Made by a program: the position numbers and the translations under genes. A DNA stretch of 64,000 nt from Lingula anatina (taxonomy: Eukaryota; Animalia; Brachiopoda): assembly GCA_051362555.1 (NCBI GenBank), contig CM120645.1, forward strand, positions 620,001 to 684,000, given 5' to 3'. The notes beneath the pieces are model-generated. The model was not told the DNA's origin. It worked only from the letters and a program-made list of their open reading frames with translations, and searched no databases. Position 1 is the first letter of the stretch, and the number at the start of each line of letters is the position of its first letter. Shown one piece after another: positions 13,596 to 61,800 of the stretch.

Positions 13596-13596
13596 T

Positions 13597-18717: not shown

Positions 18718-18875
18718 TTATTAAGACCCCATATCTGAATGGTCTACTGGTTTGTCCCAATTGTTGATTTTAACGTTGTTAAATGTTTAGCTCTTTATCA
18801 CATGTACCAGTAATTGATTATGTTTATAAATAGATAAAATGTATGTGTACTTGAACAATACTAAATTATTTTCAG

Positions 18876-20697: not shown

Positions 20698-21550
20698 GTA
20701 TGTCATCATGTATGAACTGATATATTGCCTAATTAAATTTTATTTTATGTAACCTTTAATATTAAATACATTTAATTTGCTCTAAGTACAATTTTTATGT
20801 TAACCACCCCAAATCCTGATCATAAACTTTTGTGATGCAAATGAATATATTATAATTTATAACATTAATTTGAGAAATTTTAAAAGAAAGTCATTCATGA
20901 ACGCTATCCATCCAGCTTTTCATCAGTCTTTTCCTTATTATTTTTTTCAGATAACTCATATTTTGTCCAAATGCACATTTAATCCACATAAGGTAATAGA
21001 GTTACTGCCTACTCAACAAAAATTGTATATCAAGTTAAAATGCTTGAAATACATGATTTACCAGAGTACTTATAAATGTAAACTTGCCTTTTGTCAAGTG
21101 AAACCACATGGAAATAATTTTATTGTGGAATTTTTTGCCACAAAATACCATATATAATTATGTTGTGCATAGCTGATTAAGTCAAACAAAAGAAGTGCAT
21201 GTCACACTTTTTGTATCATATTATATTTTATTTCTTTCACACAAAGACAACAAAACAGTAGACCTATGACTTAGTTATGTATTTTAAGATAAGGTACCTG
21301 TCATCAGAGGGAAGTAGAGATAAAATGTTTTATTTTGTCAACAAAACCCCAATACTGTGCATGACTCATTTTTAACAAAATTAAAATTTTGCTACCAATT
21401 TATCTTTTTTCAATTTCAGACAAAGAAAAGACAATAAAAGACATGTATGCACAGTAATGGAGGAAGTCAAAGAACATTTAGCACATTTTCCAAGTGACCA
21501 TATATAACATAAAGCAGTGACATTTCTTCCTACTGCTCCATTCCTGAGAC

Positions 21551-33896: not shown

Positions 33897-34263
33897 AATT
33901 CATTATGTCGCACATAAAAAAAGCACACTAGGTGATCAACAAGACGGCGGTGATCTCCAACTCACGAACTCCTGTTGACGTGGATTACTCGAAATAATGA
34001 ACTAATTATTCCAATTAGCGTGACGGTTACAACGGCATGCCCTACCGTGACTCTAAGTATTCTTGTTTGCCAGCGCTCAATGCACGCTACTCGAGTGTAT
34101 ACCTCAAGACTTATGCAAGGCCGGCAACGTGATTCAGTAATTTCTTGCTCAGTGGCTAGAAATCGTATCTTCCAAGAAGAGTGGGAGATGTATAAATGAC
34201 CAGCAAACGCTGATCTGCGTCACTTATGTGCAACGACTGCACAGAGTTTTCAAAGTCAAAAAC

Positions 34264-37200: not shown

Positions 37201-37778
37201 ATAACTTAAAATATCATATAAAGGTTAGAAAACACCATGGTATAAATCCTTTAGGTGTGTAAAATCCAAAATGGCCGCCAAAAGTAAACAAGGCAGCAAA
37301 GCTGTCAAATGTACAGACAAAAACCAGAAAATAAAAACGCAGGAAATAGGATACTGTCAATTCTGATGAACTAATGTATTATGCTTACTGTAACTGCATA
37401 GCCAACATCAAATTCTTATTCTGCATAACATTGGATTAGGATGAAAGTAAAATGTGTATCAAGCATTAGACTAAGTTCCCATACCTAGATCAATCTAACA
37501 GGATCAATCCAACTCCAAGGGGTTTCTCACTAAATTGCTTTCAGTTTGAGAGTCTTAGGATTCTGGCATGCCAGTTTCAGTAGGCGTGACAGACAACTAA
37601 GCCACTTACATTGATTGCAATTTAGCGAGAATTCCCATGGAGATAGATCGATCCACAGTTAGCGTGATAGGCTCTGGAAATAGTCCCTAAGGTGTCAGGC
37701 TGATAAGAGTTAAACTTTGGAAATGCCAGAATGAGGTACAGTGAAAATTACACACAAAAAAAAAAATTGCTTAAACTC

Positions 37779-37833
<55 letters not shown>

Positions 37834-40800
37834 TTTTAATTTTTTTTTTTTTGGCTGTATGTCAATCCTAAGAATCATTTTTGTAACTTAACAAAATACA
37901 AAAAATGTTACAAAGTAAGAGTACAGGGCTCCTGGCAGATGGGAGTGATAAGTCACAACTTGAAAATGCCAGTATAGCACTCTATAAACCTGCATTGCCT
38001 CCAAAACAGAAAACAATCACACTGGTTTTAAAACACAAGCTGCGCACTTCTGTCTTATGAAACTTTTCACTAAGTTTCAGTATCGTAAGTAACATGGTTT
38101 TCCCTTAATCGCTATCCTGGCAGCAGTGTCTAAAATAGGGTTTTCTTCAACTTTCATGCAATAAAACATGACATAATGACCATCAAATTTTTTATAAAAA
38201 AATAAAAGTATCATGAATATTCAGAAAATGTGATTTGGGAAGGTCTTCAAGGCCATGGAAGTTCAGAGTCACACTTTCAAAATGCCAAAATGTAAACAAC
38301 AGATAACTGTACTAAAATGATTTTCTTTCCATTTTCAACACCTTTTTTAAAACAAAATGATCAATAAACTGTCATTTTTAAATGTTCAACTAGGAAAATT
38401 GTTGACATAGGAAAAATATCAATAGAACAATTTTCAATGTCCAATTTGCTCCATTTGCAGATGCTGAACATAGTGAATGATTAAATCTGACAAACTGCAA
38501 TGATGAGTTCCTTTCCATTTATGATACTTTATTACACAATGCACAATATTATAACAGGTTTACCGTCATTTTTATATAATCAACAAACAATATTGTTAAG
38601 AAGCAGAAAATGTCAAAACAACACTTTTACATATCTTATTAGTTCCATAATGAGACTGTTAACATGCCTAAGAATTAAATCTGAAGAAATAACAATTATA
38701 TACAAAAATACAGAAAATGCACAGCACTTCTGGTGGATGGGAGTATAAAATCACATCTTGAAGATGCTAGTGTTTGAAAAATAATTTTAAAAAAATTTTA
38801 AATAAAACGTAAAAAATTCCAATAAAGCTGCTATTCAAACTTTTAATCTAGCTGTATTAACTTGATATTAATAACCCCACTAAGTTTGAGAAAAATAAAG
38901 CACTGTTATGCATCTATAGCATGTTGGCATAACACATTCTTTTTGTTGTAAATTATTTGCAATGTTAAACACCATTTATCTGCACAATTATCACCAAATC
39001 CTAATTTTGTGACACAGTTAAGAGAGCTAAACCTATGGGACTTTACAGGGAAATCTCAAGGAGTGTTTTATGTAATCTCATTTAATGGCCAATTGAAAAT
39101 TAATGAGTAGGCAAGTGACTTTATAGACCTTAATTTAATTAGTGATCACCCAAGGGACAATTTTAAAGACTGCTATCCATACAGTACCGTCATATAGCAC
39201 AAAGGTGTTGCATACATGCTGAAAAAAGTGAAAAAACAGCATTACTTCCCTAAAAATGACCCGATCATGCTGATTTTCAAACTTGACCTGCGTATTATGA
39301 ATATTCATTAGTTCTGCAAGTTTCAAACCAAAAGGTTAAATGGTTTTCCACTTATCATGTTATCAGTGTTGCATATATGCTGAAAAAAGTTAAAAACAGC
39401 ATAACTTCCTTAAAAATGACCCAATCATACTGATTTTCAAACTTGACCTGCGTATTATGAATATTCATCAGTTCTGTAAGTTTCAAGCCAAAAGGTAAAA
39501 TGATTTTTCACTTATCATGTTATCAGTGTTGTATATATGGTGAAAAAAGTGAAAAACAGCATAACTTCCCTAAAAATGACCCGATCATGCTGATTTTCGA
39601 ACTTGACCTGCGTATTATGAATATTCATCAGTTTTGTAAGTTTCAAGGGAAAAGGTAAAATGGTTTTCCACTTATCGTGTTATCGGTGCTGCATATATGC
39701 TGAAACAAGACAGCACTGTTCTGCAATGGGTTTACTTCCATTTTTAAAACACTTTTTTAACATAAAACAAAATAAACAGTTTTCTACCATTTGTATATGA
39801 TCAACTAAGAAAATTGATGAGATGGGAAAAATATCAATAGAACAGTGTTAAATGTCCAATTTCCTCCATTCTGAGATAATGAATATAGTAGATGATTGAA
39901 TCTGACAAACTGCAATGATATTTGTTTATTTCCATTTTTGACACTTTATAACATAATACACAATAACAAGTTTACCATCATTTTTACATAATCAACTAAC
40001 AATGTTATTAAGATGCAGGAAATGTCAAACAAACACTTTTACGTATCTTATTAGTTCAATAATGAGACTGTTAACATGCCTAACAATTGAATCTGAGGAA
40101 ATAAGAAAAAACAGCATAACTTCTAAAAGAATGGCCCGATTATGCTGATTTTGGAACTCAACCAGCATTTTAGTTAGTTTGACTACTCCTGTGAGTATAA
40201 TGACAATTGGCCTATCTGTTTTTCTTATATTGTGTTATTAGCGTTGCATATATGTTGAAAGAAGTGAAAAAACAGCATAACTTCCCTAAAAATGGCCCGA
40301 TCATGCTGATTTTCGAACTTTACCTGCGTATTATGAATATTCATCAGTTCTGTAAGTTTCAAGCCAAAAGGTAAAATGGTTTTCCATTTATGGTGTTATC
40401 GGTGCTGCATATATGCTGAAAAAAGGGAAAAAACAGCCTAAATTCACTAAAAATGACCCAATCACGCTGATTTTCGAACTTGACCTGCGTATTATAAATA
40501 TTCATCAGATCTGTAAGTTTCAAGCCAAAAAAAAAATGGTTTTCCACTTATCGTGTTATCGGTGCTGTATACAGTCATAAGATTATGTATGTGTGCATTT
40601 ATTCCATCTAACGTAAGAAGATTAGATACAATTATAACGTCAGAAAATACAATAGAGGGAGTGTGATAATGATAGGGTCGCTAAACGATTTTGACGGAAT
40701 ATAGTGACTAGCCTAATCCTCTTGTCGCCTGTGTAGGCACGCCCCCTTAGAGTTCTTATGTAAACAAAAGGTCTTCCATAGAGAACTATCCTTATGTTCA

Positions 40801-43800
40801 ACAGCGTCGCGCGTGCAGCGGATTATGTATATAGTGACGCTATACAGCTACAGGTAAATGCAGTTAAATCTGTGAAAGCTGTTACTTAATTTATTCTGCT
40901 GTGTCGGACGTTGTGGGCCAGCCCAATGGTTCATTCACTCATTCTTTTCTGAAGATTGGTGATGCATATTTCGAATGCTTAATTATTTGCCCTCCTTCTT
41001 ACAAGAGAAAGGAAAAAGGGAGAGAAACGGAGACAGTGTCAAATAAAAAGGGTAAAGAGTAATATAATACATTAATCTTGGACCTAAATAGAGAAGGACA
41101 AGTAACGCGGAGAAAGATCAAAGGATAATCGGCTTAGCGCGAGCTCTTCGCGAAACGATGTGCGTTCGGATCACGTGACCTCCCGTACAGGTAGCGAGCA
41201 TATCGCGGCTGTTGATGACTTTTTGTGTCATTTGGACAGGTAGCTGGTGATAACGCGAGGAAAACGTTCGGGTGGATGAGTCAAGACACTTATAGAGATA
41301 AAATGTAAGTACAATTTCTTTTGCTATTTTGGATGCTAGATGAGAATAAGGTATGTTTGTTCATGGAGGAATTCAAAATGCCCAATATGGTGAAGGCAAT
41401 CGTGTTTGTTGCCGTAAAATGAGTGTTTAAAATTGTACAACTGCGGTGTCGAATACTTGTCTTTAGCTATGATCCGATAGAAAAATATTTCTAGTCTCGA
41501 AATTTTACCTCTATGTAAAGAATTAGCCTTAGATGCGGCAATAATTTAACCTCAAATCGTGTTTTGAATTAAAATGACGCAATTCCTCTCCGATTTATTC
41601 GACTCGCCGACATCGTTTTAGGTCTGGTATTATTTACGTACGGTTTAGATAAAGGTGTCATCAACACCGCTGTGTACTATATGTATAGGTTTATGTTACT
41701 TGCTTAAGTGAGCCCGAATTATGGAATGATAATTAATATTTTTAACTCTTAATATGGGCTCTCGTTGCAACATGGCACCACACATGCAATTGTGACACAC
41801 AAAAACGCACCTGTGATCCTTTTAATATCCTTTTATCAAAGTTGACATTAACACTGCTCTGAAGTATATATATATTTACACATTACCGGCTACAGTCAGC
41901 TCCGGTCTGAGAATGATAATTATTATTTTGATAACTCTCAATATGGGCTATCATTGCAATATGGCACAACACATGCAATTATGACACACAAAAACGCACC
42001 TGTGATCCTTTTAATATCTTTTTATCAAAGTTGACATTAACACTGATCGAAAGTATATATATATTTACACATTACCGGCTACAGTCAGCTCCAGTCTGAG
42101 AATGATAATTATTATTTTTTTAACTCTTAATATGGGCTATCATTGCAATATGGCACCACCCATGCAATTGTGACACACAAAAACGCACCTGTGGGCCTTT
42201 TAATATCCTTTTATCAAAGTTGACATTAACTCTACTCTGAAGTATATATGTATATTCACATGACCGGCTAAAGTCTTCTCCAGTTTGAGAATAATAATTA
42301 TTAGTTTTTCATTTTTAAATTGGATTCCCTAAACAGAATAAAGACGATTGACAAACACCCTCATTGGTCTTATAGTGAAAGTGTATATGTGGACATGTAC
42401 ACATGCAAAGTTCATGATTATATTTACTCGGGTAATGGTCATAAAAGTAGATCTTGATCACATTTGTGATAAGAGTCTCACCTCTGTAATTGCCTTGCTA
42501 CATTGCATTATCTTGTTATCAGGTGCTTGAAATCTTTGAAATAATCCTGAGACATGCCTTTGGATAGCACCTAGCTGGCTTTATCAAATCATCAAAGGGC
42601 CAGACGGCTTTGTTACCTGGCTGATAATGATCTAGAAAGTCCATGCCTAACAAGGGAAGTAAATTTAACTAGAGCCTAGTAGAGGGAAAATCTACCTGAC
42701 AGGTAGAATCTTGAGATGCATTTGATAAGGCTTACCTGTGGCTCAAATGTCCAAGTAGAAGTAAAAAAGGCAATTGCCATTTATAGTAGTTTGTGATAAA
42801 AACATTCTTATTCTCTTCCAGATTCTCTCCACAAGATGCCGGAAAGTTAAAATTGGACAATGCACCATTACCCAAGAGGAGACTCACTAATTAAACATTT
42901 GGACAGTAATTCACATAGGTCAATGAGAAATTAGTTTATACCTTTTATAAATAAGTTAATACTACTTGGATACAAATAGGAAAGAACTCCAACAAGCATT
43001 TTAAAATTTTAATGTTTACTTTTTTAATAATAAATATTGGAATGTACTCAAGTTGTTTTATATTTCCTATCTTATAATGAAAAAAAAATCAAATGTAAAA
43101 AACATGGATTATATGTTTAGACAGTTTTTTCTTGCTTGATTGAAATTGCATATTCAATTACCTCAGAATACACTAACTACAGGTTTAAAAAATCTGATCC
43201 TGATAAAATTCATACTCACATTTGACATTGACCCTCTTGCAGTGATATGCGTCTTATTTGTCAAATCTTTTATTATTTAAAGTTGTGTAAAAAAAAGGAA
43301 GTGAAAAGAAATAAAAAGAAGATTTTTATATCAAATATATGCATTTTTTTATCTCACGGACAGGAAAAGACAGCAGGTATTGCAAACAAACTTCACAACC
43401 CGTTTTTATAAGGTAACGGGGGAAAAATGCCGAAAACCCCTCAATAAATTTCCACGTGTTGACGGAAACCTGTGTGCTCGCAACTGCAAGATGGTGGCAA
43501 TGCTGTATCATAGCAACCACGAGGGACTGCGAGAAATTGCGTTATCAATGCAGAGAAACAATAGAAATGCACTGAAGCACAGCGCGCGCTACCTTAATAA
43601 TAAGCTGTTCAGACGCCCGTGGAGCTATCAAAACAGATTATGTGAGACAATGGGCGAATGTTTACCCGAACGCACATAGCTTCAAAGGAAGATGCCGCGT
43701 TACTTGTCCTTCTCTATTTAGGTCCAAGCATTAATTAAAGGGACTCGAGGTGGAAGAAACGATAGACTGTTTTGCATCAAGGTAGGCAATTATAATCCCA

Positions 43801-46800
43801 CATGGCCATCGCATATACGGCCGTAGTTTAAATACATTACTCATAGTTGTATTTAATTACATTATTTTGCTGAATAGACATACATTTAAAAGTTGGTCTT
43901 TCAGGAAATCGTTTTGTTTGAAATAACACACACGACAGAGGTAAAATCACATATAAATTTATTTTGAAATAAAATGTTTCGCTAGATCTTGTTAACACTC
44001 AGCGAAATGCACCTAGTGATTATATTCAATGTGCCATCATTTAATTGCTTTCTCGGTTTCATTAATGGACGATAATAATTGCAGTAAGCAAGAAGGAGGA
44101 AATACTGAAGACAAAACAACGCCGTAGGTATGTGTGACTTTCTCCCTTAACATTTTCTATGATGCTGTCAAAGAAAAAGGAACCGAGATAGCGATCATTT
44201 AAACCGCTGCTGTTTACAGGTGGACTTCTTCGTTTACCATTTAAATGCCCCCCTCCCCCAGCAGACCCAACTTGAGGAATGCCATTGTAGCTACAGTACA
44301 CTGTATATCAAACTTCGGTCCAAGTTATGAAATGTTTAAGCACAAAACGATAATTTGAGGGTATTTTTTCATTCAAGACAAAATTCAATAACTATGATGT
44401 GTGACAAAAGAGACTTTATAAAGCTTTACGTGTACTTAGATATATTCCAGTAACCTATGGAGATAGGCTAGCGACGTAATTGTAACCTCAACAGGCAGTG
44501 TCCCCGATGAAAGCAAGCACCACAATAAACACTGAAAGGCGGGGTACAAAAATTAACTTTTTTAAATATCGATTACAACATGCTGTACAATGACTGAGTC
44601 GTGAAAGGGGTTTTGGACTTCTTTGCGTTAAAAACAAATTCATTTCGAAATCAAAAGAGCATTTTTTGGGGGGCGCGTGGGGGGGATAAATAGTAACTCA
44701 TTCCGTAATCCTTCCTGAACATTTATTTAATCGTATCAGAACGTTTGATACACAATGTTCACTAGTGTCATAATTTTGGCGATGTATTAAAACCATAATT
44801 GTACAAAGTAGGTTAGCATAAGTTAGGCAACAACCAGTGTGAAGAATAACTCCCTTTTTAAGTGAGGCAAGACAACCTATTCAAACTGATTATAACCTTG
44901 ATAAAGACACAAGGTAAAGGAGTTATGTAAACTAGCGTGTGAAAACACATTCTTTGTCAGTGTTACAAGACAATGGAGGCGACCAAGTGGGGTAATTACA
45001 ATATACCCCTGTACAGTCAAAGAGAAATTTGTTATGAAAGCTTACATCGGGTCAGCCCTTAATTTGCTTGTCCGAAAGAAAGAGATAGATGTCGCAACGC
45101 GAATCCTTTTATTAACCCTTCATGAGTTTGTGTAAAAGTGTGAAAGACAGGCCACGATCTCGAGTCGCTGTTGATATTGTTCGCAATTAATATTGGAGTA
45201 TACCGCCTACATGTAAACATCAGACAAGGCGTTGAGATTGATAAAAGTGCAGGTTTATCTGAAAAATTAGATGCCATTTTTGTGATATGACTTATTAAGT
45301 GATGTGCATGTACCGAACATGTTTAAATTCTTGATTTTTATTATTTGAAACATCTTCATACACGGCCTCATATTTATATTTCTCTCAGGCCATACTCATT
45401 TTATTGTATAACATGGGACTCTAAAGCACAGGACATTGTGAAAGTTAATTGGCTACAGAGACTTGTTATCCTTTATGCAGTTTTATAGCGTGGATAAACT
45501 AGAAACAGGCTTTACTTAGCTTTACTTAATTTACAAAAATTTAAACAAAATCAATCTGCAAGGCTTGCTTTGACTTGATGTTAACCTAACACTGGTTTTA
45601 AAAGGAGAAATATAAATATGTTGGATGGATTAAATCACCGACACCGTTCTATTTTAACTTAACGTGGTCATATACACAGTAACACAGATAATATTTATAA
45701 GTTGTCTGTCGTTCAGCACGCATTATAGGCGAGTAGCCAAACAGTGACGATGATCAATCCAAGTAAAATCTAGGCAAGTATTGTTTACAAAATAGATCAT
45801 GATGAATAAACCTACGCTTTAATAAATAATTACCACACGGTTCTGTTTTTGTCTCTTAAAAAACTTTCGTTTAAAGACGCTCAATGATATCAAAAATGAT
45901 TCGACGCTTTAAAAATGGACCGGTTCAAGGGGCATTTTTTGTTTCAGCTAGGGACTTCAGGTAGAGGATTCAGTGTAGGTGTTTCCTCGGATGATAACAG
46001 CATCACACCCTAGGTCTAAGCGAGTTGACTAGAAGCTTTTTGTCCAAGCATCCTATTCCTACTACTAAACTAATAACTCTAAACCACAAAGGTTTGTGCG
46101 GTAAAAATATTTAAACTAAATGAGGTGCATTGACAGAGGCACAAGTACAATCCAACGCCAACGTGCAACAGGGGAAAGTCTGACAGTGAATTACATAATA
46201 TATGAAAGTGCGGTCAATATTAACAGTGTAAGACATCAGTTAAAGAGGAGGGGGTCTTACTATCTTTTGTTAAACGCGACTGTTATTATCTCTCGAACAA
46301 GCTTAAACCATGCCTTATACAATTACTGTGTCTCCGGCTGTCGTGCAGAAACGGCATGTCGAACATATTTTGCTACAGTTACAAACAGGGAAAACTAGCG
46401 ACTTAGTTGTTCTAGATCGCTCTAGTAAGAAAGCATAAGTGCGGCGCCCGGGCAAAACAATCAACTACCCGGTATAACATTCATATCTTAGCGTTTACAT
46501 ATGACGCGCAAAGAGCTAAGCAATTAGCCTTGACAAAGTGGTCCGTTTTTAAACAACAACGAGAAAAAAGAACACCTTGTCACAGTTATGAGACAAATCG
46601 CTTGCAACGTGCAACAAGGGGGATGGCTGACAGTGTGGTCACACTACATGTTTATGAAAGTACGTTGAATTAACAGTCTTCGACATCGCCCAAAGAGGAG
46701 GGACTTACTGTAGCCCTCAATCTATTGTTAAACGCGATCATTATCTTTTCTCATACAACCTTAAACAAAACCTAAACAATAAGATTGTTAAATCAGATAA

Positions 46801-49800
46801 GTGATGTAAAATCATATTGGAAATTTACGTTGACGACGGAGACTTCCATTCGCAAAGTTAATGAAACAAGACTGGTCCAAGTTAACTGCCCATATTGAAT
46901 AAATCTTGGACTGTTAAACCTAAAGCCATGCTTCACTTTGGTAATAGTTATTTAGTAAGCTAGGTTTATTCACATATATCACAAAGCATAAGGGCGTTAT
47001 GCTGCAAACAACCCATTTTGAACGCAATCGTCATCGCTGCCGTACAACCTGAAATCATGCCTATACAATATTAGGAGATGCACGTCGAGTAAAAGATTCA
47101 ACACCTGGGTGCCCAGCACTATTATGAAAAGGAAAAATGACTTGACGTTTCATGCACAATCATCATGCATGCGCAATATGCTGCATGCGCAGTCGATTTT
47201 TATCAAAATAAAAAGTGTGTTTCATACAAGCAAAATCTAACTTTCCTTTATAACTGTTACTGAACAGCGAAGAGTTACATAAACCCAGTTATAAAATTAC
47301 AAATGAAATTATGAGGCTAATTTCTCTAATGTGGAATGAAATATTTTGTTGGCTTTCAAATGATATGACACTCACTTTAATCTTAAAAGAAGTTAGTTAA
47401 TGTGCTCGTTCCCCTAACGCGCGTGCCAAAAGGTCCCATCAAATAACCAGATACACATCTGTCTATACTGGTAACTAGTGAAAATCTATCTGTGGCTTTT
47501 GATAATGGGTAGACACTCACCGCGTTAGTTGCGACAATGATTATTTCTTCACAGCGATTTATTCATTTAATTATTAAATCATAATATATTTATTAAATTA
47601 TTTGAAATAATTTACCTTTTTTAATGATTTATACCATCTAATTTTTATCTTTTTTATTTGATTCTTAATGTCATCAAATTATTTACTTAATTCTTTAAAT
47701 AATTTATTTATTTATCAAGCCTGTAGCCAGCAATTTCAAAAGGGGGGGGGGGGGGTCTTTTTCTGAAAAAGTGGACCTTTTACCGAAAAATCCCCATGTA
47801 CTTTATGTCCAGTGAAACGTCTGACGAGGAATATGATAGAAGTGGGAAACTAAAAGTAGGTAACTGAATCGGCATAACATGTGCCCATGCGATATTCATT
47901 AAATTTCGGGACATTGCGTCCGCCTATGTCATCAGGTGACTGGAGATTCTACACGCAAGGACCCTTAATTTCTTTGTGCAGTCGCAGTGACCGCTATCGG
48001 AGCAAACAAGCGACTCCTGGATAAAGAACATATTGTCAACTGCAACTGCTAAATAGCTAGAGAAACTAAAACTTACCGCATCCATGTAACAGTCAGCAAT
48101 TTGTACTGTTGATCCTTGCTTGAAGTTGTGCAGAATCTGTCACTGTACGCTTCAACAGATCGAGTGAACTGCTGGAAAGTTCTCATAGAGGTAAAATGAA
48201 ATTTTTTGAACTGAAGATTTCAGTTGCAGATTTGAGATAACTTGTAGCTTAATTGTATCATGCTCGTGAACAGAATGAATCAAGCAAAATGAGGCCAGGC
48301 AGTGATGCCCCATGGTATAAGTAGCACCAGGCTGCAGGCCTGTTTATTTATTTATTCATTTATTTTTTTTTTTATTAAGATTTTCTATTATTATCCTTTT
48401 ACGGATTCGCTCTATTATTTTATATAAAATGTAACTTAATGTAGTAATTGAGGCAACACGCCAGCTTGTAATGTGAATAAATTGTTTTAATATTGTTTCT
48501 TTGTTATTTCTTTAATATTGTTTCTTTGTTATTTCTACCCGCACGAAAATGCAGTAGTATCGAAGTAGCAAAAAAGCATTAACGCGGTAGTGGTGTGGAG
48601 CATATTTGCAGTAGAAATGCAGTATAGCCTACTGCAATTCTACTTCAAAAATTACATAGGGTTGTACAGAGGAGGAGCATTAATGCAGTAGATTAGCAGC
48701 ATGATAGAAACATGTTTCAAATATGCTAATTAGCTCCCCTATCGAAGCAGATTTTAAGCATGTTTGCAGTATGATTGCAGTAGTCTACTGCGCTGGAGTA
48801 TCTACTTCGTTTTTGTGCGGGTAAACAGTAATCTATTTTTACACAGGTCGCGATGATGACAATTTGTGTACGGAGCATCTTTAAACTTTTTGAGACGGGG
48901 TGATTTGTTGATCATGCTGATGTACGATGTTGATGCATGTTTATCAAATTCAATTTTTGACTACAGAACACTTCATATTGAATTAAATAACTGATACTAA
49001 ATTAAACTAGCAGTTATCTTGCAACACTTAAAACATGATCAGCTGCGCGTGCCAAGCTAGTGAACATAAGGATAGGTGGCCACGGGAGTGGCACGCGTTA
49101 GCATGGGTTCTAGCATCTTAAAGCTATAATCCTATCGCCGCAACAAACAATGGGCACCTTCTGGCTGATGTATCCTGCTGTTAATTACACCTAGTCACAG
49201 CGGATTGTCGCGCTCGCGCTGGACCACAGAAACAGGCGTCATGGGGTTCACTCGCCTAAGGTATTGTGTGTTATTACGTCAAACTATTGTGTTTTTGCGT
49301 TCGAATTTTGAAGGGATTAGACGGCTTTCCATTGTTTGTCCGCCCCCTTCTATTCACAGGATAGGGATTAAAACATTCTGACGCTTTTAAAACGTCGTAC
49401 AACGGAAACATAATTATTATTTCTACTGTATATGCCGAAAAAAGTGAAAAAACAGCATAAATTCCCTATAAGTGACCCGATCATGCTGATTTTCGAACTT
49501 GACCTGCGTATTATGAACATTCATCAGTTCTGTAAGTTTCAAGCCAAAAGGTAAAATGGTTTTCCACTTATCGTGTTATCGGTGCTGCATACAGTGGTCG
49601 GAATAATTTTGTTTCCGTTGTACACCGGTGTGACCACGTTCGAAATGTTTTAATCCCTATCTTGTGAATAGAAGGGGGCGGACAAACAATGGAGGGCCGT
49701 ATAAATCCCTTCAAAATTCGAACGCACAAACACAATAGCTTAGGTGGAATAACATAATACTTAATACGTGTGAACCCCATGACGCCGGTTTCTGTGGCCC

Positions 49801-52800
49801 AGCGCGAGCGTGACAATCCGCTGTAACTAGGTGTAATTAACAGCAGGATACATCAGCCAGAAGGTCCCTATTGTTTGTTGCGGTGATAGGATTATAGCTT
49901 GAAGAGGCTAAACCCATGCTAAGGCGTGCCACGCGAAGAGAACTGTCCTTTTGTTCACTAGTTTGGCACGCGCAGCTGGTTTTTAGTGTTGCTAACAAAC
50001 TGCTAGTTAAATTTATCAGTTATTTCATCCTATATGAAATTTCCGCAGTCAAAAATTGAACTAATTATTGTTTGTTTGGTTGAAATGCATGAGCGTCAGC
50101 ATCAATCTGTCTCAAAAAATTCCTATTGCATTAATTTATAAATGTATAATTTATTTATGTACTTACGTTTTAATGTGAAATATCTGCATTCAAGCGTTCA
50201 AGTATTTATAAAACATGAATGATAATGAAAGAGGAATAAGGAAATAACATATTACTTATATTATGCTTATATTATAATATTGGAATTAAATGAGGTGCAT
50301 TGACATAGGCGCAATGACAATCCAACTACAACGTGCAACAGGGGGAAGTCTGGCTGTATGATCATACAATATACGAAAGTACGGTCAATTAAAAGTGTAA
50401 ATCATCAGTTAAATAGGAGGGGGTCTTACTATGGTCGCTTTCTATTGTTAAACCCGACTGTTATTGTCTCTCGAACAAGCTTAAAGCATGCCTATACAAT
50501 TACTGTGTCTCCGGCTGCCGTTCAGAAACACCATGTCGAACGTATTTTGCTACAGTGAGAAACATGGTACACTAGCGACTTGTTTTAGATCACTCAAGAA
50601 AGGATGCATACGTGCGACACCAGAGGAAAAACAATCAAGTATGCGTCTGATCCATTAATAGTAATTGCACAGTGCATGTTACTAGACCTTTGTCCTAACT
50701 CAGTAGTTAGGAATAGGATGTTTGGATAAAAAGCTTCTATTCAACTCGCTTAGACCTAAGATCTAATAAACAGAAAGATTGGACACTCGGCGATTCTTCA
50801 AAGGGTAATCCGATTAACTGTGGAAAGACGTTCGTACGGCGGAAGTAGTCAGTCGCGTTGTGATCGTGCGCAGGTAGAGCTCTGTTGCATGTGGGCGATT
50901 TCAAGGTAGGTAAATTACCTCTTTTAGTCTTGTAGTTTCCATGAGAATGTTTGTGCAGAAGGGAAAACTAACAGTGTTCACTTGTGTGTAAAATATGCAA
51001 TATTTTGGAGCAGATATTATCGTGAAAATTTGCCTTCAATCCGTTGTTGCATTCAAATTAGCAATATGGCGACAGACAAGCGAGTTTGAATGCTTTAATT
51101 GTTACCTAAGGTCTAACACGAGGAGTTTAACTTTATGTACGTTGGTTTTTATATTACTGATGACTGAATAACACTGTCGTTTTATTGGTTGATAATTTAA
51201 TTTATAGTAGCTTCGTTTTCTATGAAAATTTAAACAATACTTCGGGCAATAAAGCAAAATGGCGGTGCTGATCATAATCGCCGGGGTTAAAATGCACAGC
51301 CGAACACGAAAGTGGATCTAAACAATGCGTTGGCAGTTTAACTGTGTCCATCTAAACAAGTAGTGGAAGGTCGTAGGGTCAAACTTAGCTAAAATTTAGC
51401 TTTTTTTCTTAAGAATATTTAACGGTAAAAATGACAATAACACAAGATGGCGGCGACTTTTGTTATCGATGGGCTTCAAATGCATAGCCGAACACGAAAT
51501 TAGATCTGTACTATGCATTGACAGTTAAACTGTGTTCATCTAAAAAAGTAGAAGAAGGTCGTAGGGTCAAACTTAGCTAAACTTAAGCTTTTTTTCTTAT
51601 GAATATTTAACGGTAAAGATGACAATAAAACAAGATGGCGGCGACTTTTGTTATCGATGGGCTTCAAATGCACAGCCGAACACGAAATTAGATATGTACT
51701 ATGCATTGGCAGTTAACCTGTGTTCATCTAAAAAAGTAGTGGAAGGTCGTAGGGTCAAACTTAGCTCAAATTTAGTTTTTTTTCTTGGAAATATTTATCG
51801 GTAAAGATGACAATAAAACAAGATGGCGGGGACTACAACTGGTGATATTTTTATCCAGGATTTATACCTAAGTAATGAGAAGATTGCGTCAAATTGTGCC
51901 TCACATCCTTATTATTATTATTTTTTGTTTTGTTTTGTTTTCAGATGCCATTAAAATGGGTCAAGGCCCGCAGGAGAAAAAATAAAGAGCAAAATCAAAA
52001 GGTAAGCTTTCTGGTCTATAACTAGGACTTTTTAGTTTATGGAGTTGAAAGTAAAATGTCTTACATACATGGGCACTATCAATCTGTCCCTTGTGTGTCA
52101 TCATCAGTAAGATATTTCCACTGTACCGACAACATTATTACAAGTATCGGATTTCCACTGTACCAACAACATTATTACCAGTATCGGATACAAAAAGGCA
52201 GGTGCAATCACCACAGTGGATTGAGTGGAATTATACAAATGACAAATAATAAGAGACTAGCACATGTCAGAACCTTTTTAACAGTAAAATATTATTTTAT
52301 TATTTCGGGTGAATGTCATAATGCAAGTGTTGCAGATGATTTAGATGCACCACTGTCAAGTTTGCAAAGTGATTGTAAACAATCAAAAAGACACACAGAT
52401 GTATTAAATAAGCAAAATGGTAAGCTGCCCGAAATTAATTATTTAATTTTTGCTCGATAGTTTTTCAAGTGCACGAAAAGCTAGGTCAGTGTTGTCCGTA
52501 CAGTGGACTTTAACATTACATGAGCAATTAACACGTCAGCATCTTTTTAACTGTGTGATAATATTTTTTTCAGATATATGTTGCAATGTAAGTGATTCTG
52601 ATGACGACGTACCTCTGTCAAGTTAACTCGGTGCTACTCAAGAACCTGACAGGCACATTGATATTTCAGCAAATGGACCACCTTGAAACTAGCCATATGT
52701 TGTTCTTCATGAAAAACAAATATATCACTATAAATTGTCTCCCTTCTGTCAACTCTGAAGTTTAGTTTACTGTCAAGTCTAGGTTGGAATTAGTCAGTAG

Positions 52801-55800
52801 TGCTCTTAGCAATAGATAAATATTATCATCACGTGCATAATTTTTATTGAATGAGATATTAATGTTGAAACAAGTCAAAATAGGGGGAAAATGCTATAAT
52901 TCTTTGTCATGTGAAACTAGTACTCCTAAATAAATAACCTATCTGTTGTGATTGTGTAACAGTCAGTGGTATCTAAAGGTGTTAACATTTTTATTTGCAT
53001 TTCAATATCTGTGCCTTATTAAATCTATAATAAAATGCTTATGGACAGAATATGGATTGTATTATGTTACTATATCAGCCAGAAATGAATGATCAGTTTT
53101 AAATGCTGAATCTGATGAAATATTGATAATTTTAGCAATCACCTTTTATTTAGTCATTTTTAGTGAGATGGCAAACAAAATTGTTACACATATTATTCTT
53201 CCAATACATTCTGTGGAAGATGTTCAAAAGACATATGTTTCAAAACAGATTTTGCAGAGTTTAAAAATATGTGCATGATTATGAAGTCACAAGGAAACTA
53301 TATTGCATGTGTTCTTTATAAATATGAAAAAACGAGTTTACTTTTATTTGATTGTCAGTATAAAGATATGTCTTACCTTTCACTATCATTATGAAGTAGG
53401 TTCCCAAATTAGTGTTTGTGAAAGTGAAATTAAAAACTACTTTTTCTTTAAGGATTTTTTTTTCAGTCCATTTTGTTTCACTGATTTGCTACGAATATTC
53501 TGGTGAATTTGAATTGATTATGCTCTAAAGGAATGACCGCCAGTAGTGACAAAGTTTTACAAACATGCATAATAGATCAAGTTTCTGTTTTGGTGTAGCT
53601 TCACCATTCAGTTTTCTCCCAGTGATTAGCATGACCTTATTGTCCAAAACGGCATCGAATATCACTATCTGTTACGTTGATGATCTCGTCACGTTTCCGG
53701 CTATATCTCCACGTTGAGTCAATTTCTATAAAATGGCAGCTGTTGTTACAGGTAGTGCGCTATTGGGTATTGCCTCCTCTGAATATAAAATATTAAGACA
53801 ACTACGAAATGTAAACAAACTGTACATCTTTAGAACTTTTTAATAAAAAAACTCCACGTGTGCCATTGCTTATCCAATATGGCGGATCTACTTGACGACG
53901 ATATGGCGTCCGCGAGAATGCACGAGAAATCACGCTATTAGCTAAACACGGGTTAGGTACAATGGGGATTAAAATTAAGCCCGGCTATCAAAACAACTTA
54001 AGGGGAACAATAGAGCAATGTTTACCCGTACGCACGTCTGGTCAAAGGGAAAATGCCGCTGTCCAATCTTTCTGTTTATTAGATCTTAGGTCTAAGCGAG
54101 TTGAATAGAAGCTTTTTATCCAAACATCCTATTCCTAACTACTGAGTTAGGACAAAGGTCTAGTAACATGCACTGTGCAATTACTATTAATGGATCAGAC
54201 GCATACTTGATTGTTTTTCCTCTGGTGTCGCACGTATGCATCCTTTCTTGAGTGATCTGTTTATTAGATCTTAGCTTAGACCTAGGGCGTGATGCTATCA
54301 TCCGATGAAACACGTAACTGCACCCTCTACCTGAACCTGAAGTCCCTTTATCTGAAACAAAAACTGCCCCTTGAACATGTCCATTTTTTAATCGTCAAAT
54401 GATTTGTGATTTCATTGAACGTCTTTGATCGAAAGCTTTCAAGTGACAATAACCGAACCATGTGTTGATTATTTATTAAAGCGTAATTAAGTTTATTCAA
54501 CATGATCTATTTTGTAAACGATACTTGCCAAGATTGAGCTTGGATTGATCACCGTCACTATTTAGCTACTCGCCTATAATGCGTGCTGAACGACAGACAA
54601 CTTAAAAATATTATCTGTGTAACTGTGCAAATGCAAATGTTAAAATATAACAAAGCCGGCATCTAATCCATCGAACATATTTATATTTGTTCTTTTTAAA
54701 CCAGTGTAAGGGTAACGCCAAATCAAAGCAAGCCTTGCAGACTGGTTTTGTTTAAACTGTCGTGCATCAAGTAAAGCTAAGTAAAGCCTGTTTCTACTTC
54801 GCAGTGTTCATCCCAGCCATAAAACTGCATGAAGGATAACATGACTCCGTAGACCTGTGCTTCAGGTTTCCAGGAGTCCCGTGTAACACAATAATATCGA
54901 AGGCCTGAGAGTAATACATATATGAGGCCGTGTATGAAAGATTTAACAAATTAGAAATTCAAGAATTTAAACATGCTAGGTACATGCACATCACTTAATA
55001 AGTCATTTCACAAAAATCGCATCTAATTGTTTAGATTAACCTTTACTTTTATCGATCTCATCCCATTGTCTCAACCACCTAAAAGAAATATAGAGAACAT
55101 GAGGAAAAGTAACACGTTTACATGCAGGCGAAGGAGTTATACTTCAATATTAATCGCGAACAATATCAACAGCGACTAAAGACCGTTGCCTGTCTTTCAC
55201 ACTTTTACACAAACACACGAAGGTTTAATAAAGGGAGTCGCGGCGCGATATCTACAGGTATCTCTTTCATTCGAACAAGCAAAGGGCTGACCCGAAGTAA
55301 GCTTTCTATACTAATGTCCTTTTTATTGTGTATTGTAATTACTCTACTTGCTCGCCTCCATTGTCTTATAAAAGTGACAAAGACTGTGTTGTATTCACAC
55401 ACGAGATGAAAGAACTCCTTTACCTTAAGTTGCATAATGTCTTTCTCAAGGTTATAATCAGTGTGAAGAGGGTGTCTTGCCTCATTTAAAAAGGGTGTTG
55501 TTCTTCATACTGGTTGTTGCTTAACTTATGCTAATCTTAAACTTTTATGTACCAATATGGTTTTAATAAATCGCTAAAATTATTAATTTAATGAACATTG
55601 TGTATCAAACGTTTTGATACGATTTAAATAAATGGACGAGGAGGATTACGGTATTAGGTTCTATTTACCTCTGGCTTTAACTTCGCCCTGCTATATAAAT
55701 GAACAAATGTTGCAGATCGTAACAAAAAACTTTCTTATAGTGTTTTATGACATATATGATTTACACATTTGATAGTGAAACACTCCTCGACTTTAACGAA

Positions 55801-58800
55801 TCACCTGACGTAAACTGTCTACCCGCGCTCCCCGAAAAAAACTGTTTCTTTTAATTTTGAAATGAATTGCTTTTAAGGCAAAGAAGTCCATTAAACCCTT
55901 TAGTCTCAATATCATTGTACAGCATGTTGTAATCGGTATTTAAAAAAGTTAATTTTTGTACTCCGCTTTCATCGAGGATACCTCAAGTTGAGGTTACAAT
56001 TACGTCGCTCGCCTATGCTACTGGAATATATATTTAAGGACAAATTAAGCTTTGTAAAGTCCCTATTGTCACACACCATAGATACTTTATTTTGTCTTGA
56101 ATGAAAAAATAGCCTCAAATTATCGTTTTGTGCTTAAACCTTTCATTACTTGAACCAAGATCTGTACTATAGCTACCAAGACGTACATGCATCAAGTTGG
56201 GTCTGCTGGCGGAGGGGAGCATTTAAATGATAAACGAGGAAGTCTACCTGCAAAAGCAGCAGCAGTGGTTTAAATAATCGCTATCTAGACTCCTTTTTCT
56301 TTGACAGCAACATAAAAAGTGTTTAGGGAGAAAGTCACACAAAGACCCGACGTTGTTTTGTCTTCAGCATTTCCTCTTCCTTGTTATCTGCAATTACTAT
56401 CGTCAATTAATGAAATCGAGAAAGCAATTAAGTGACGGCACATTGAATATAGTCACTAGGTGCATTTCGCTGAGTGTTTACAAGATCTAGCGACACATTT
56501 TATCGCCACGCGTTCTAGTTTGATTAGTTTAGAAAATTAAACAGTTACTCTGTCGGCTCTCCGTCATTGCTATGAATCTGACATCGAATTTAGTCCAAAA
56601 TATTAGTAAATTCAGAATTATTAGCTAAAAGGTAAATTGCCCTAATTTGTCAGATAATCAAAAATGCCGGTGATCCACGCGGAGGGTACGCTTTCCTGAA
56701 GGTAGCGGCGACGAACGGCGACGATATTTTTCTGAATAGTGAACCTTTATTAGTTACGAAAAGCCCCCTTTTCAACAGGCGCGTTTTATTAATTACTTCA
56801 TGTCACAAAGTTAATTTATACAGGCAAAACTTTATTTTAAGGAAATAGTTTCACGAAATGAACGAGAGTAAAATATTAGTCGGCACAAATATAAGGCATA
56901 CAACAATGAGTCATGTTATGGATCATGTTATGGGCCATGTCGGATTATAATGGCATACCTTGATGAAAAACAGTCTATCGTTTCTTCCACCGCGAGTCCC
57001 TTTATTTAATGTAATGTATTACTCATTACCCGTTTCATTTGACACTCTCTCTTTTTATCTCCCTTCCCCTTTCTCTTGTTAGAAGGAGGGTACATAATTA
57101 AGCACTCAAAATCTGCACCACCAATCTTCAGAAAAACAGAAGTCAACGAACCAGTGGGCTGATCCACAACATCTGACACAGCAGAATGAATCAAATAACA
57201 GCTAGCACAGATTTATATGCAGTTAGCTATAGTGTCACTACATACATAATCAGCTGCACGCGCGAAGCTGTTGAACAAAAGGATAGTTCGCTACGGGAGA
57301 CCGTTTGTTTACATAAGTACTCTAAGGGGGCGTGGCTACCCAGGCGACCAAGGGATTAGGCTAGTTACTATATGCCGTCAACAATCGTTTAGCGACCCTA
57401 TCATTATACACTCTCTCTATTGTATTTTCCACCGCATTAATCGCAGTGTAATCTTCAAATGGTCCACGGGGTAAATGTACACATTCTTAATCCGAGTACG
57501 GTATATGCTGAAAAAAGAGAAAAAATAGCCTAAATTCACTAAAAATGACCCAATCACGCTGATTTTCGAACTTGACCTGCGTATTATAAATATTCATCAG
57601 ATCTGTAAGTTTCAAGCCAAAAAGTAAAATGGTTTTCCACTTATCGTGTTATCGGTGCTGTATATATGCTGAAAAAAGTGAAAAAACAGCATAAATTCCC
57701 TATAAGTGACCCGATCATGCTGATTTTCGAACTTGACCTGCGTATTATGAATATTCATCAGTTCTGTAAGTTTCAAGCCAAAAGAAAAAACAGTTTTCCA
57801 CTTATCGTGTTATCGGTAAAAGTGCACGGCGACGACGGCGACGGCGACGGCGACGGCGACGACAGACGCAGATGATGGCTATATGTACAGACACATCTGT
57901 GTCTGTACATAAAAAGCAGACCATTTATTCAAGATATCCATTAGAATGGCGAATTAATCATGCACTTAAAACTACAGGCAAAAAGTTTGGCACATTTGTG
58001 GAAAATGAAATTCTAAGCAAATTTGGATATATGGGCATGTCCGAAAATTAAAAAATGGCCGCCAAATCCAAGATGGCCTCCAAAAATACAGCTTCTAATT
58101 AAATCTTCAAGTATATAGTCTTTAAAGGGCTTAAATATCATATAAAGGTTAAAAAACACCACAGTATGAATTCAGCATCCATATCTGCTTCTTTAGGTGC
58201 ATTAAATCCAAAATGGCCGCCAATAGTAAAAAGCACTCTATTAATCCAAGATATCCAGCATAGTGGTGAATTCATCAAAAACTATAAGCATGGCATTTGG
58301 CACAGTTGTAAAACGGGATTCCAAGCACTTAAAGGTATATGGGCATGTCTAAAAATTCCAATATATGGCCCCCAAATCCAATATGGCCACCACACATACC
58401 TGTTTAAATTAAAACTTCAAGTATATAATCCTATCATAGCTTAAGATAACATTTTATGGTTAAACAAAATTATGGTATGCATGAAGTATCAATATTTGCT
58501 TCTTTAGGTGTATAGAAATCCAAAATGGCCTCCAAAAATTAGAAAACAGACCACTCACAGCAGCAGTATGGTGAATTCATCATGCATTTAAAACTACAAG
58601 CATGAAAATTGGCACAATTGTAGAGAACAGGATTCTAAGCAATTTTTTTATATAGGGACGTGTCTGAAAATTCTAATATGGCCACTAAAACCCTTTGAAA
58701 GTAAAAATTCTACTTCATAATCTGACTTATAACAGTCTTTAATCTTTTTTCGTTTGAAAACAATGCTCAGTTTAGATGAATTATCAAAAACCGCTCCTTT

Positions 58801-61800
58801 AGTTACATTAAGATCCAAATGACCATAAAAAAAGGAACAGGACTCCTTTTGGTCCAGTTGTGACACCACATGCAGCAATTATGTAAATGCCAAGGATATA
58901 AAAAAGGAAAAGTTATTTTCACAAATAAGTATTCAAGTTGGTGTTGCACATTTTATGGGCGAGCAACCTATTACTTTAGTAAATGGACAATATCTCAACA
59001 GAGGATATCAGCTTCTACTTATTTGGTTAAATAATATTCATTCATTAATGTGTGCCTAGCTTTAGTTGTGTTTCCCTCAGCTTTCCCAGAATTTGCCTGA
59101 AGCTATAGCTTCTTCATGTAATCCACTTTCCCCAACAAAATACCAAGAGGCATTGGTCATTTTTAACACCAGAAAGCATCAGTTTACATGCATGAGGGGC
59201 AATATGAATATGAAAGTGTGGTAGGGCATATTAGTAGATGTAGGTTACTAGTGTGAACCCATATAGGACCAGTCTTCCAATGCTTCTGACTCCCCTCACC
59301 ACAGTTAGCAATTGCACACATAACTACGAACAAATGTGGTAGGTGCTACATGCGAAAGGTAAGTTTTGTTATCTGGGTAAGTGAATACTCCTCATGGCTT
59401 CATTCTGGATTGTTCCACAGAGACAATGATGCCGGAAATCTCGATGAATATTTACCTTTCAAAGTCCATATCGCAATAAAATTCTTGGTATAATCCTCAG
59501 AATACACCGTGAATTTTTGAAGCTTTGTATGTATTAACTTTCTGAAGGATTTTAATTTTTTTATTATCATGTTCAGTTATTTGAAAGTATAAGTTTGTAA
59601 CTAAACAATTTGCCAAATGGTCAAATGAAAACCAAAGTTTGGTGCCTACTTTTTTAGTGCACGAAGTTTGAAGCCTGCAATGCAACTCTTGGATACAGCA
59701 CGTATCAACACCTGCCCTCTGTTTGGGGTATTTCTTTGCTCATGAATTTTCACTAAATTCTCGGTATCCAGTACTGCGGATGTACTAAATCCATTTCTTG
59801 AAATTAGAAGCTTTTCTTATTCACTTTTGAAGCACAAGATAACATCATAAGATTACCGAGTGCAAATGTGCCCCTGCCTTTAGTACTTTACCAATGCACC
59901 ACACCAAATTGTTGAGACCTGTATGTTTGATTAGCTGTCATTTTTGTTATATTTGTGAGCATTTGATGAAGCGCCATGCACTGAGCTAGCTGAAGAATAA
60001 TAACCAACAGACAAAATTGGTACACCCCAAGCTTTTTTTATATTTGCCTCTTTGAGGCTAAGTTATTTTTGTTTCTATCACATTTTATGGATTTTGCACG
60101 ATACTTTTTTTTCTTAGAAAGGGGGAGTTGCCCATGAGTGCCATATAAGTAGATCGCTAACTGGGAATTGATCTAAATGAGAATCCAGAGCAAAAAGCCA
60201 AACTACTTATTTTGGTTTAGCAAAATAAGGACTGTTTTCAGTATATAATAAATGTATCATGCTTGATGCTTTTTTACAAACTCTGTAGAATAGCTCCTGC
60301 ACAAGTAGAAATATGCTGATTATACAGGTAGTTGCAAAGCCCACGTGCCTTTTCACGAGTGATTACAATTCAATACTTGTGGCCCACTGACTTTTGGAGG
60401 CCATTTTGGAATTTAAAAACCTAAAATGGCAGATACTGATGCTACATACATACTATGGTATTTTCTAACCATTAGATGATATTTTCATCAAAGACTATTC
60501 AAATAACTTACACCTTGAAAGGGTATTTTGGGGGCCATATTGAAATTGACTGCCATATTGGAATTTTTAGACATGCCCCTATATCCAATGTTGCTTAGAA
60601 TCATGTTCTCCACTACTGTGCCAATTTTTATGCTTGTAATTGTAAGTGCTTGATGATTTCATAAAACTACTGCATATTTTGAGTAAGTAGACTGCTTATT
60701 TTACTTTTGGAGGCCATTTTGGAATTCTATACTCCTGTAGAAGCGGATATTGACAATTCATTCATAGCATGATATTTTCCAGCTATAAAATGATATTTTA
60801 AACAATTATAGGACTATATATTAGAGGTTTTCATTGAAAAGAGTATTTGTGGCGGCCATATTGGATTTGGCGGCCATATTAGAATTTTCAGACATGCCCA
60901 TATATCCAAAATTGCTTAGAATTTCATTCTCTACCACTGTGCCAAATTTCATGCTTGTAGGTAAAAAATGCACAATTCACCCTTTTTTCTGCACCAAATT
61001 CTTGGACTGCTGGTACGATATTCCAATCTAAAAGTTGTGTAAACTACAACTACAAAAACCAGGCCGGTTGAAGAACACGTAGCTGTTCTTGTTTGCCGAG
61101 CTAATTAATTCACTAAATTAAATGTTATCTTTATTTAGATCAGAATTCCACACCGCCACCAGTCAGATTCTTCGGTCTCTCTCTCCGCGCCCTGTTGTAC
61201 CTGGGAGACCAAGGCAAGGAACAGAGTGATTACGTCATGACTAGGGTGAGAAAAAGAACTGCAATAGTCATAAATAATGCGGATGATGATTAAAATTGCA
61301 TTTAGATAAAAGATAGTAAATTATTACTTCATTTATTCTTTCCCTCATTTTTCATGTTAATATTCTGATGTAATTATTGTCAGAAGTTTTTTTTCTCGAC
61401 TTAATGGATGTTAACTGCCGCCCTGAGCCGTATGGCGTAAAACCTTGCATGTATATACAATGTACATCTTCACACGTGTCTTTTTTCCAGCCAGTAGATC
61501 AGGAGGTAGTGTGCCCCCCTGGTTTTGTTCCTGGTGTCCAGGATTGCCGCCCCCTTCTGTACAATTTCACGGTAATGCGGTCACTCGTTCTCTTACATTT
61601 TGAACCGTGTGGCTGGGTTCCAACTCCTAGAGATGGCTGTGGAGATATCATACGAGATGGTCGACTGGGAGCTGTAGTAAGAGCTGCACAGGCACAGGCT
61701 TTTACCTGTGGTCAGAAACGCGGCGCGGATAACACGTCCATCATCTTTGTCCTTGGAACAATGGTCACTCTACGCGTGAGACTAGCCGACTACGAGGAAG

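What the first reader, a model, noticed from the sequence alone, without database searches (positions are those of the whole stretch)
40572..57501. Two diverged elements inserted at the identical TA of consecutive satellite monomers: candidate satellite-targeting transposon family
Seen: X (40572-49428) and Y (49592-57501) are homologous over several kb (roughly 80% by eye, many indels), lie in opposite orientation, and are separated by exactly one 161-bp monomer. Both sit in the middle TA of ggtgctg(c/t)aTAtatgc and duplicate it. All satellite monomers keep one orientation and are far more alike than X and Y, which argues against a simple inverted duplication. Ends are CAGT/CCGT-like (as in Tc1/pogo), but terminal repeats are short and poor and no ORF is present. 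Inference: two independent, sequence-specific insertions into a satellite that is itself carried by a Helentron, i.e. a transposon using another mobile element's repeat as a multicopy safe harbour. The result is a ~17-kb quasi-palindrome.
Basis: partly seen in the sequence, partly recalled or inferred. Interest (0 to 1): 0.85.

Follow-up and report, generated by a model that had tools for sequence, protein, structure and literature searches.

The report
Two DNA transposons in adjacent repeats
Two related non-coding DNA transposons sit at the same TA of neighbouring 161-base repeats in a brachiopod, but the family's other copies are joined to unrelated DNA, so this is likely ordinary nesting at a generally attractive TA rather than a satellite-targeting transposon.

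Summary
X (40572-49428) and Y (49592-57501) are inverted, one 161-bp monomer apart, and each duplicates the same TA; empty paralogous junctions in the same array confirm both duplications. They share about 3.5 kb at 78-93% identity (BLAST) and have no coding trace. Their flanking monomers match paralogues at 96-98%, so these are two independent insertions. The repeat is the central array of a Helentron-type non-autonomous element (about 37288-57911) in a Lingula brachiopod. The targeting claim failed its own test. In contigs of four DNA runs the Y-type right end is multicopy, but depth on the satellite flank is 0 in three runs and 61 in one, against 10,000-20,000 on the end. Twenty-two listed contigs continue into long, heterogeneous, non-satellite flanks. 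The used TA scores best (once tied with its neighbour) against the Tc1/Sleeping Beauty target motif in both monomers scanned. Best reading: a multicopy non-autonomous family, probably Tc1/mariner-like, with generic ATAT preference. Two things remain open: the adjacency is improbable by chance (0.0001-0.06 expected pairs), and only one end in one orientation was tested directly.

The parts
40572..49428 (+). Element X: non-autonomous DNA transposon, ends CAGT...ACTG, imperfect terminal inverted repeats (13 of the first 20 nt match)
49592..57501 (-). Element Y: same family, other subfamily, inverted relative to X, ends CCGT/CAGT (13 of the first 20 nt match)
40570..40571 (.). TA target duplication of X, left copy (right copy 49429-49430)
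   Evidence: empty paralogue at 57663
49590..49591 (.). TA target duplication of Y, left copy (right copy 57502-57503)
   Evidence: empty paralogue at 40410
49429..49589 (+). Monomer b between X and Y; chimeric: head of b' type, tail of m3/m5 type
39205..40571 (+). Monomers m1-m5 and a of the 161-bp array, interrupted at about 39710-40100 by a second copy of a 400-bp internal segment (38294-38695, 81% alike)
57502..57817 (+). Monomers a' and b' (a/a' 98.1%, b/b' 96.1%); their junction is the empty form of X's site
37288..57911 (-). Host: Helentron-associated non-autonomous element (HINE); boundaries good to a few nt. 5' subTIR 57900-57910 with its IR 57883-57893, microsatellite 57826-57863, 3' subTIR 37309-37319, hairpin 37292-37306; inserted in an A/T run of a 320-bp repeat without a visible duplication
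   Evidence: anatomy compared with passages of PMC7492417
41077..43728 (.). Nested element V in X: about 35-nt inverted ends, 7-bp duplication CATTAAT, internal 189-bp x3 repeat; absent from Y
50757..54088 (.). Nested element Z in Y: inverted ends of about 29 nt, 9-bp duplication GGTCTAAGC, internal 188-bp x3 repeat; a third 17-nt end at 54257-54273 and a perfect 199-bp inverted duplication (50587-50785 / 54060-54258); absent from X
40786..40836 (+). Subterminal motif of 50-64 nt shared, inverted, by the left and right ends of both elements (also 49025-49088, 49934-49981, 57236-57299)

Best explanation
X and Y are two copies of a multicopy, non-coding DNA transposon family that inserted independently, each duplicating a TA, and they were likely moved by a Tc1/mariner-type transposase encoded elsewhere that prefers ATAT-like TA sites rather than this repeat. 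Shown: TA duplications, independence, a multicopy right end, unrelated flanks of other copies, and that the used TA is the monomer's best match to the Tc1/Sleeping Beauty motif. That motif match explains why two hits in this repeat fall on the same base and in either orientation. Inferred: the enzyme class (from TA plus C[A/C]GT ends only) and cut-and-paste movement. Also inferred: that landing in neighbouring monomers is a low-probability coincidence in an insertion-tolerant nest (320-bp repeat, then HINE, then X and Y, then V and Z), perhaps brought in cis by unequal crossover between two alleles.
For: laid 17 nt of satellite left arm plus Y's right end on contigs of runs X1, X2, X3, X7 (90, 84, 69, 77 contigs laid). 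Summed depth at 49595-49599 is 19711, 16450, 13780, 10254; on the satellite flank 49575-49584 it is 0, 61, 0, 0. Depth at the -2 base is 1.1-4.5% of the terminus. Six listed loose-end rows at 49589/49590 hold 22 contigs, median loose length 24-255 nt, agreement 0.49-0.70, no consensus resembling either satellite arm (arms printed); a diverged right end stops matching at 49430-49434 while the contig runs on for 278, 420 and 683 nt (records 22, 5, 28; probably one locus); the used TA scores 9 of 12 against RCAYATATRTGY, top of 14 TAs in one monomer and joint top of 12 in another; 251 of 5226 window TAs score 9 or more; no coding signal (10 of 52 indels are multiples of 3; no codon periodicity).
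Against: The adjacency is not well explained by chance: 0.0001 to 0.065 neighbour pairs expected per genome for this family, on rough copy numbers. One contig in X2 (depth 61) does join a Y-type end to the monomer at the neighbouring TA (table 4). Only the Y-type right end against the left arm was tested directly; left ends, X-type ends and the opposite orientation were not. 47 loose-end rows and 817 were not shown. Contig assemblers may drop low-depth links between two high-depth repeats (recalled, not tested). No transposase was found, and terminal repeats this poor with long asymmetric conserved ends are unusual for Tc1/mariner (recalled).
Confidence: 0.7

Rival explanations
1. The family has a real but leaky preference for this site in the HINE monomer, as Pokey prefers 28S rDNA yet also inserts elsewhere, and uses it as a multicopy safe harbour.
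For: Two diverged copies at the same base of neighbouring monomers; low chance expectation; a third insertion 2 nt away in run X2; the monomer is very abundant (summed depth 0.7-6 million).
Against: 0 depth on the satellite flank in 3 of 4 runs; at most 1.1-4.5% of terminal depth shares even two flank bases with Y's site; opposite orientations; no similarity between element ends and target arms (at most 8 of 20 nt).
Confidence: 0.12
2. The second element was drawn in by the first: transposase bound at X's right end, or an open stretch beside it, captured Y at the nearest good TA, giving a tail-to-tail pair 163 nt apart.
For: It accounts for the adjacency without satellite targeting. PMC2577343 (passages) discusses P elements re-using occupied sites in inverted orientation.
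Against: One case only; no call tested it; the P-element case rests on regenerating an 8-bp target, which does not apply here.
Confidence: 0.1
3. X and Y inserted on two haplotypes of this HINE (m5-a[X]b' and m5[Y]a-b') and were joined through monomer b by unequal crossover or by the assembler. This is compatible with the best explanation and changes only how they came to lie in cis.
For: Monomer b is a chimera with a b'-type head and an m3/m5-type tail; a and a' differ at 3 sites plus one gap, b and b' heads at 2 of 122, close to the 1.6% heterozygosity published for L. anatina (passage). No contig carried Y's exact junction in the 4 runs.
Against: A plain dimer duplication followed by two insertions gives the same pattern. 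The window has no N. No listed run holds more than 0.56 of X's words, so absence in these runs says little about the assembly.
Confidence: 0.3
4. One insertion was duplicated and inverted in place, then diverged.
For: Opposite orientation and close spacing.
Against: X/Y distance is K2P 0.14-0.18 against about 2-4% for paralogous flanking monomers; both right-end types are multicopy in other individuals; each element has its own duplication and empty paralogue.
Confidence: 0.02
5. The elements are Crypton-like, moved by a tyrosine recombinase through a circle, with TA as the crossover core.
For: Poor terminal repeats and conserved asymmetric ends of about 500 nt; non-autonomous Cryptons keep a few hundred nt of each end (passage of PMC3212892); CryptonV includes target-specific families (passage of PMC8869645).
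Against: That paper reports 4-6-bp terminal direct repeats for fungal Cryptons and no terminal repeats for animal ones; here all four ends begin C[A/C]GT with a TA duplication, as in Tc1-like elements (passage of PMC7093834). No recombinase remnant.
Confidence: 0.08

Closest known systems
Non-autonomous IS630-Tc1-mariner elements (Tc1, Sleeping Beauty, Traveler; pogo-like CCGT ends recalled)
   Same: TA duplication; ends starting CAGT; insertion in either orientation; target resembling CAYATATRTG / RCAYATATRTGY.
   Different: Much longer (8-9 kb; about 6.2 and 4.4 kb without the nested inserts); terminal repeats only 13 of 20 nt; about 500 nt of asymmetric conserved end sequence; no transposase seen.
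Cg_HINE elements of Crassostrea gigas (Helentron-associated, PMC7492417)
   Same: Host element: 5' subTIR with IR and microsatellite, short array of 140-180-bp monomers, 3' subTIR with hairpin, insertion in a T run without duplication.
   Different: Brachiopod host; sequence relation to Cg_HINE not tested; this copy is swollen to 20.6 kb by X and Y.
Target-specific DNA transposons Dada, Pokey and CryptonV
   Same: Insertion at a fixed base of a multicopy sequence (at this locus only).
   Different: Dada makes 6-7-bp duplications in RNA genes and shares a short motif with its target; Pokey is a piggyBac in 28S rDNA; CryptonV targets microsatellites. Here the duplication is TA, no motif is shared with the target, and most tested ends lie outside the repeat.

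Membership tests
IS630-Tc1-mariner (non-autonomous) | TA target site duplication | tested here: met
   Both elements, against empty paralogues
IS630-Tc1-mariner (non-autonomous) | Terminal inverted repeats beginning CAG | tested here: inconclusive
   Three ends begin CAGT, one CCGT; only 13 of 20 nt match within each element
IS630-Tc1-mariner (non-autonomous) | DDE/D transposase in the element or in an autonomous partner with the same ends | not testable with these tools
   None in X or Y (0 of 88 frames); no genome held to find a partner
IS630-Tc1-mariner (non-autonomous) | Many dispersed copies at unrelated TA sites | tested here: met
   right end only
Target-specific DNA transposon (Dada/CryptonV type) | Nearly all copies at one site of one multicopy target | tested here: not met
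   Flank/terminus depth 0, 0.004, 0, 0; 22 contigs with other flanks
Dada | 6-7-bp duplication; subterminal motif shared with the target; RNA-gene target | tested here: not met
   TA duplication; no end/target similarity; 0 Rfam matches in 36500-59000
Pokey-like leaky preference | Enrichment in one repeat over its share of suitable sites | tested here: inconclusive
   One junction contig in 1 of 4 runs; one end and one orientation only
Crypton | Tyrosine recombinase; 4-6-bp direct repeats or no terminal repeats | tested here: inconclusive
   No recombinase in X or Y; TA plus weak inverted ends do not fit; partner unknown
Helentron HINE (host) | 5' subTIR + IR + microsatellite; central tandem repeats; 3' subTIR + hairpin; T-run insertion without duplication | tested here: met
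   against passages of PMC7492417
Helentron HINE (host) | Autonomous Rep-helicase partner with the same subTIRs | not testable with these tools
   No genome held

The most novel reading that the evidence does not exclude
A long non-autonomous TA-duplicating family whose transposase is biased, though not restricted, to the GCATATATGC site of a Helentron-borne repeat, or to DNA beside an already inserted family end. It would then hitch-hike on another mobile element's central repeat and be spread by it.
Probability: 0.15. Interest if true: 0.65.

Novelty: new member of a known kind. Interest (0 to 1): 0.22.

Why it matters
As it stands it is a clean example of nested transposons and an uncharacterised brachiopod DNA transposon family with two subfamilies. 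It also shows how a generic ATAT preference makes separate insertions fall on one base of a repeat and mimic targeting. If a real bias for the Helentron repeat were shown, it would add to the short list of target-biased eukaryotic DNA transposons (Pokey, CryptonV and Dada in the passages read) and would be a case of one DNA transposon exploiting another's repeat.

Tried and rejected
No whole genome is held, so the direct flank count could not be run. Exact-pattern scans for conserved end motifs found 0 matches in metagenome contigs and viral contigs. Four look-ups of earlier findings returned nothing. tblastx of X against Y showed no shared long open frame; Pfam gave 13 weak hits on 11 of 88 frames, all below cut-off and none transposase-like; Rfam gave 0 matches. 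An 8-bp (hAT-like) duplication was rejected by reading the junctions. A Dada-like motif shared by ends and target was not found. Summed contig depth was not used as a copy number, since overlapping contigs inflate it; 'tens to a few hundred copies' is a rough inference from 10,000-20,000 against single-contig depths of about 20-130. Paper searches for a satellite-targeting DNA transposon gave 0 papers and 'CryptonV' gave 3; Repbase and Dfam were not available, so the family may already be named there. No supplements were read.
Full report
Setting. An exon at 2096-2545 is 98% identical to LRIG3 of the brachiopod Lingula anatina, so the window is from that species or a very close one. No whole genome was available. 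L. anatina is reported at 425 Mb with 1.6% heterozygosity (PMC4595640, passages).

Observation. X is 40572-49428 (8857 nt) and Y is 49592-57501 (7910 nt). They are inverted and separated by one 161-bp monomer. Each is flanked by TA on both sides at the same base of the monomer, in GGTGCTG(C/T)A-TA-TATGC. The order of monomers is m5, a, [X], b, [Y], a', b', with a/a' 98.1% and b/b' 96.1% alike while other pairs are 87-94%. The a'|b' junction is therefore an empty copy of X's site and m5|a an empty copy of Y's site; both read with a single TA, which fixes a TA duplication. X and Y share 3510 nt in seven blocks at 78-93%. K2P distance in the four long blocks is 0.14-0.18, several times that between paralogous flanking monomers, so they diverged long before they inserted. 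Independent insertion is well supported.

Anatomy of X and Y. All four ends begin C[A/C]GT, but only 13 of the first 20 nt match within each element. About 500 nt at the left end and 470 nt at the right end are conserved between X and Y, and a 50-64-nt motif is shared, inverted, by left and right ends. X holds a nested 2652-nt element with a 7-bp duplication; Y holds a nested 3332-nt element with a 9-bp duplication and a 199-bp inverted duplication beside it; each site is empty in the other element. There is no coding trace: 0 of 88 frames of 50 aa or more reach a Pfam cut-off, 10 of 52 indels are multiples of three, and mismatches show no codon periodicity. Rfam finds nothing in 36500-59000.

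Host. The array is the central repeat of a Helentron-associated non-autonomous element on the minus strand, about 37288-57911. It has a subTIR with adjacent IR and a microsatellite at one end and a subTIR with hairpin at the other, and sits in an A/T run of a 320-bp repeat without a visible duplication. This matches the anatomy given for oyster Cg_HINEs (PMC7492417, passages).

Test of targeting. Ten of 21 listed runs hold part of X, none more than 0.56 of its words. I laid contigs of 5 of those 10 runs in two calls. One search (48800-50200; X1, X2, X3, X5) showed both right-end types at summed depths of thousands to tens of thousands (lower in X5), and the monomer at 0.7-6 million. It also showed a diverged right end whose match stops at 49430-49434 while the contig runs on for 278-683 nt (three records, probably one locus). 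(17 nt of satellite left arm plus Y's right end; X1, X2, X3, X7) is the direct test. Depth at 49595-49599 is 19711, 16450, 13780 and 10254. At the base two before the TA it is 489, 741, 469 and 110, and on 49575-49584 it is 0, 61, 0 and 0. The 61 is one X2 contig with an extra AT, that is, a Y-type end at the neighbouring TA of the monomer. Six listed rows of loose ends at 49589/49590 hold 22 contigs with median loose lengths of 24-255 nt and agreement of 0.49-0.70; none resembles either satellite arm. Runs may share loci, so 22 is not a count of insertions.

Limits of that test. Only the Y-type right end against the left arm was read directly. Left ends, X-type ends and the opposite orientation were not. 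Tables were cut (47 loose-end rows unseen, 817). Assemblers may remove low-depth links between two high-depth repeats (recalled), although one such link survived in X2. Summed depth is not a copy number.

Why the same base. Tc1 prefers CAYATATRTG and Sleeping Beauty RCAYATATRTGY (PMC2577343, Table 1 passage). The used TA scores 9 of 12 against the latter. It is the top of 14 TAs in one monomer and joint top of 12 in another, tied with the neighbouring TA that the X2 contig uses; 251 of 5226 window TAs score as high. About 25-43% of terminal depth has A before the TA in three runs and 16-19% in the fourth, which is compatible with such a preference but does not prove it. A generic preference thus explains the shared base and the free orientation.

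What stays unexplained. Under that model, with 200-1000 family copies and 5,000-90,000 monomers (rough guesses), 0.0001-0.065 neighbour pairs are expected per genome. The adjacency is thus a rare event for this one family, though less so over all families and windows scanned. The locus is plainly insertion-tolerant, with four levels of nesting. Monomer b is a chimera with a b'-type head and an m3/m5-type tail, and a/a' differ by about 2%. The cis arrangement may therefore come from unequal crossover, or an assembly merge, of two haplotypes that each carried one element. That changes how they were joined, not the need for two hits in one array.

Comparison. It works like a non-autonomous Tc1/mariner element: TA duplication and CAGT ends (PMC7093834, passages). 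Membership is not proven, since the terminal repeats are poor and no transposase could be sought. It fails the defining test of target-specific families: Dada has 6-7-bp duplications and a motif shared with its RNA-gene target (PMC3706591, passages), and Pokey and CryptonV are the other cases named in PMC8869645 (passages). A Crypton origin is possible but fits the ends less well (PMC3212892, passages). PMC5753468 (passages) gave only the superfamily list. Two full-text searches for a satellite-targeting DNA transposon returned 0 papers; the other searches were seen as listings, and Repbase and Dfam could not be consulted.

Verdict. The structure is real, the insertions are independent and the host is as described, but satellite targeting is not supported. 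New member of a known kind; interest 0.22. A leaky bias for the repeat or for neighbouring family ends remains at about 0.15.

Noticed in passing
window 40572-40581, 49419-49428, 49592-49601, 57492-57501: The terminal 10 nt are less conserved between X and Y than the sequence just inside; Y carries TCGG at positions 7-10 of both ends while X does not, as if the two ends of each subfamily co-evolve.
   Followed up: partly
window 50587-50785, 54060-54273: Nested element Z has a third, 17-nt end followed by a perfect 199-bp inverted copy of its far flank and end; likely a template switch during or after its insertion. The 9-bp duplication suggests a Mutator-like element (recalled).
   Followed up: partly
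window 41077-43728: Nested element V in X with a 7-bp duplication (CATTAAT) and about 35-nt inverted ends; superfamily not determined.
   Followed up: partly
window 46780-48949: X-only block of 2.2 kb with several short inverted repeats near 48240-48820; possibly a further nested element.
   Followed up: no
window 21548-24142 (+): Uninterrupted 864-aa frame with LRR, Roc and COR domains, a Roco-type protein; CARD frames at 1573-1884 and 28482-28799 look paralogous.
   Followed up: partly
window 14881-16578 and 25634-27244: Two arrays of a 146-bp monomer, about 85% alike, with shared flanks; probably a second HINE family. 27252-27396 is 70-73% like the 161-bp monomer, inverted.
   Followed up: no
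window 37011-37288, 57910-58692, 60390-61008: A roughly 320-bp repeat in inverted arrays, a foldback-like element into which the HINE inserted.
   Followed up: partly
window 18865-19257 (+): Fragment of a hAT transposase dimerisation domain.
   Followed up: no
window 34141-35700 (+): 519-aa frame with a cysteine-rich segment and no Pfam hit at E 0.001.
   Followed up: no
window 2096-2548 (+) and downstream to about 4750: Exons of an LRIG-family gene, 98% identical to L. anatina LRIG3 over the exon tested.
   Followed up: partly
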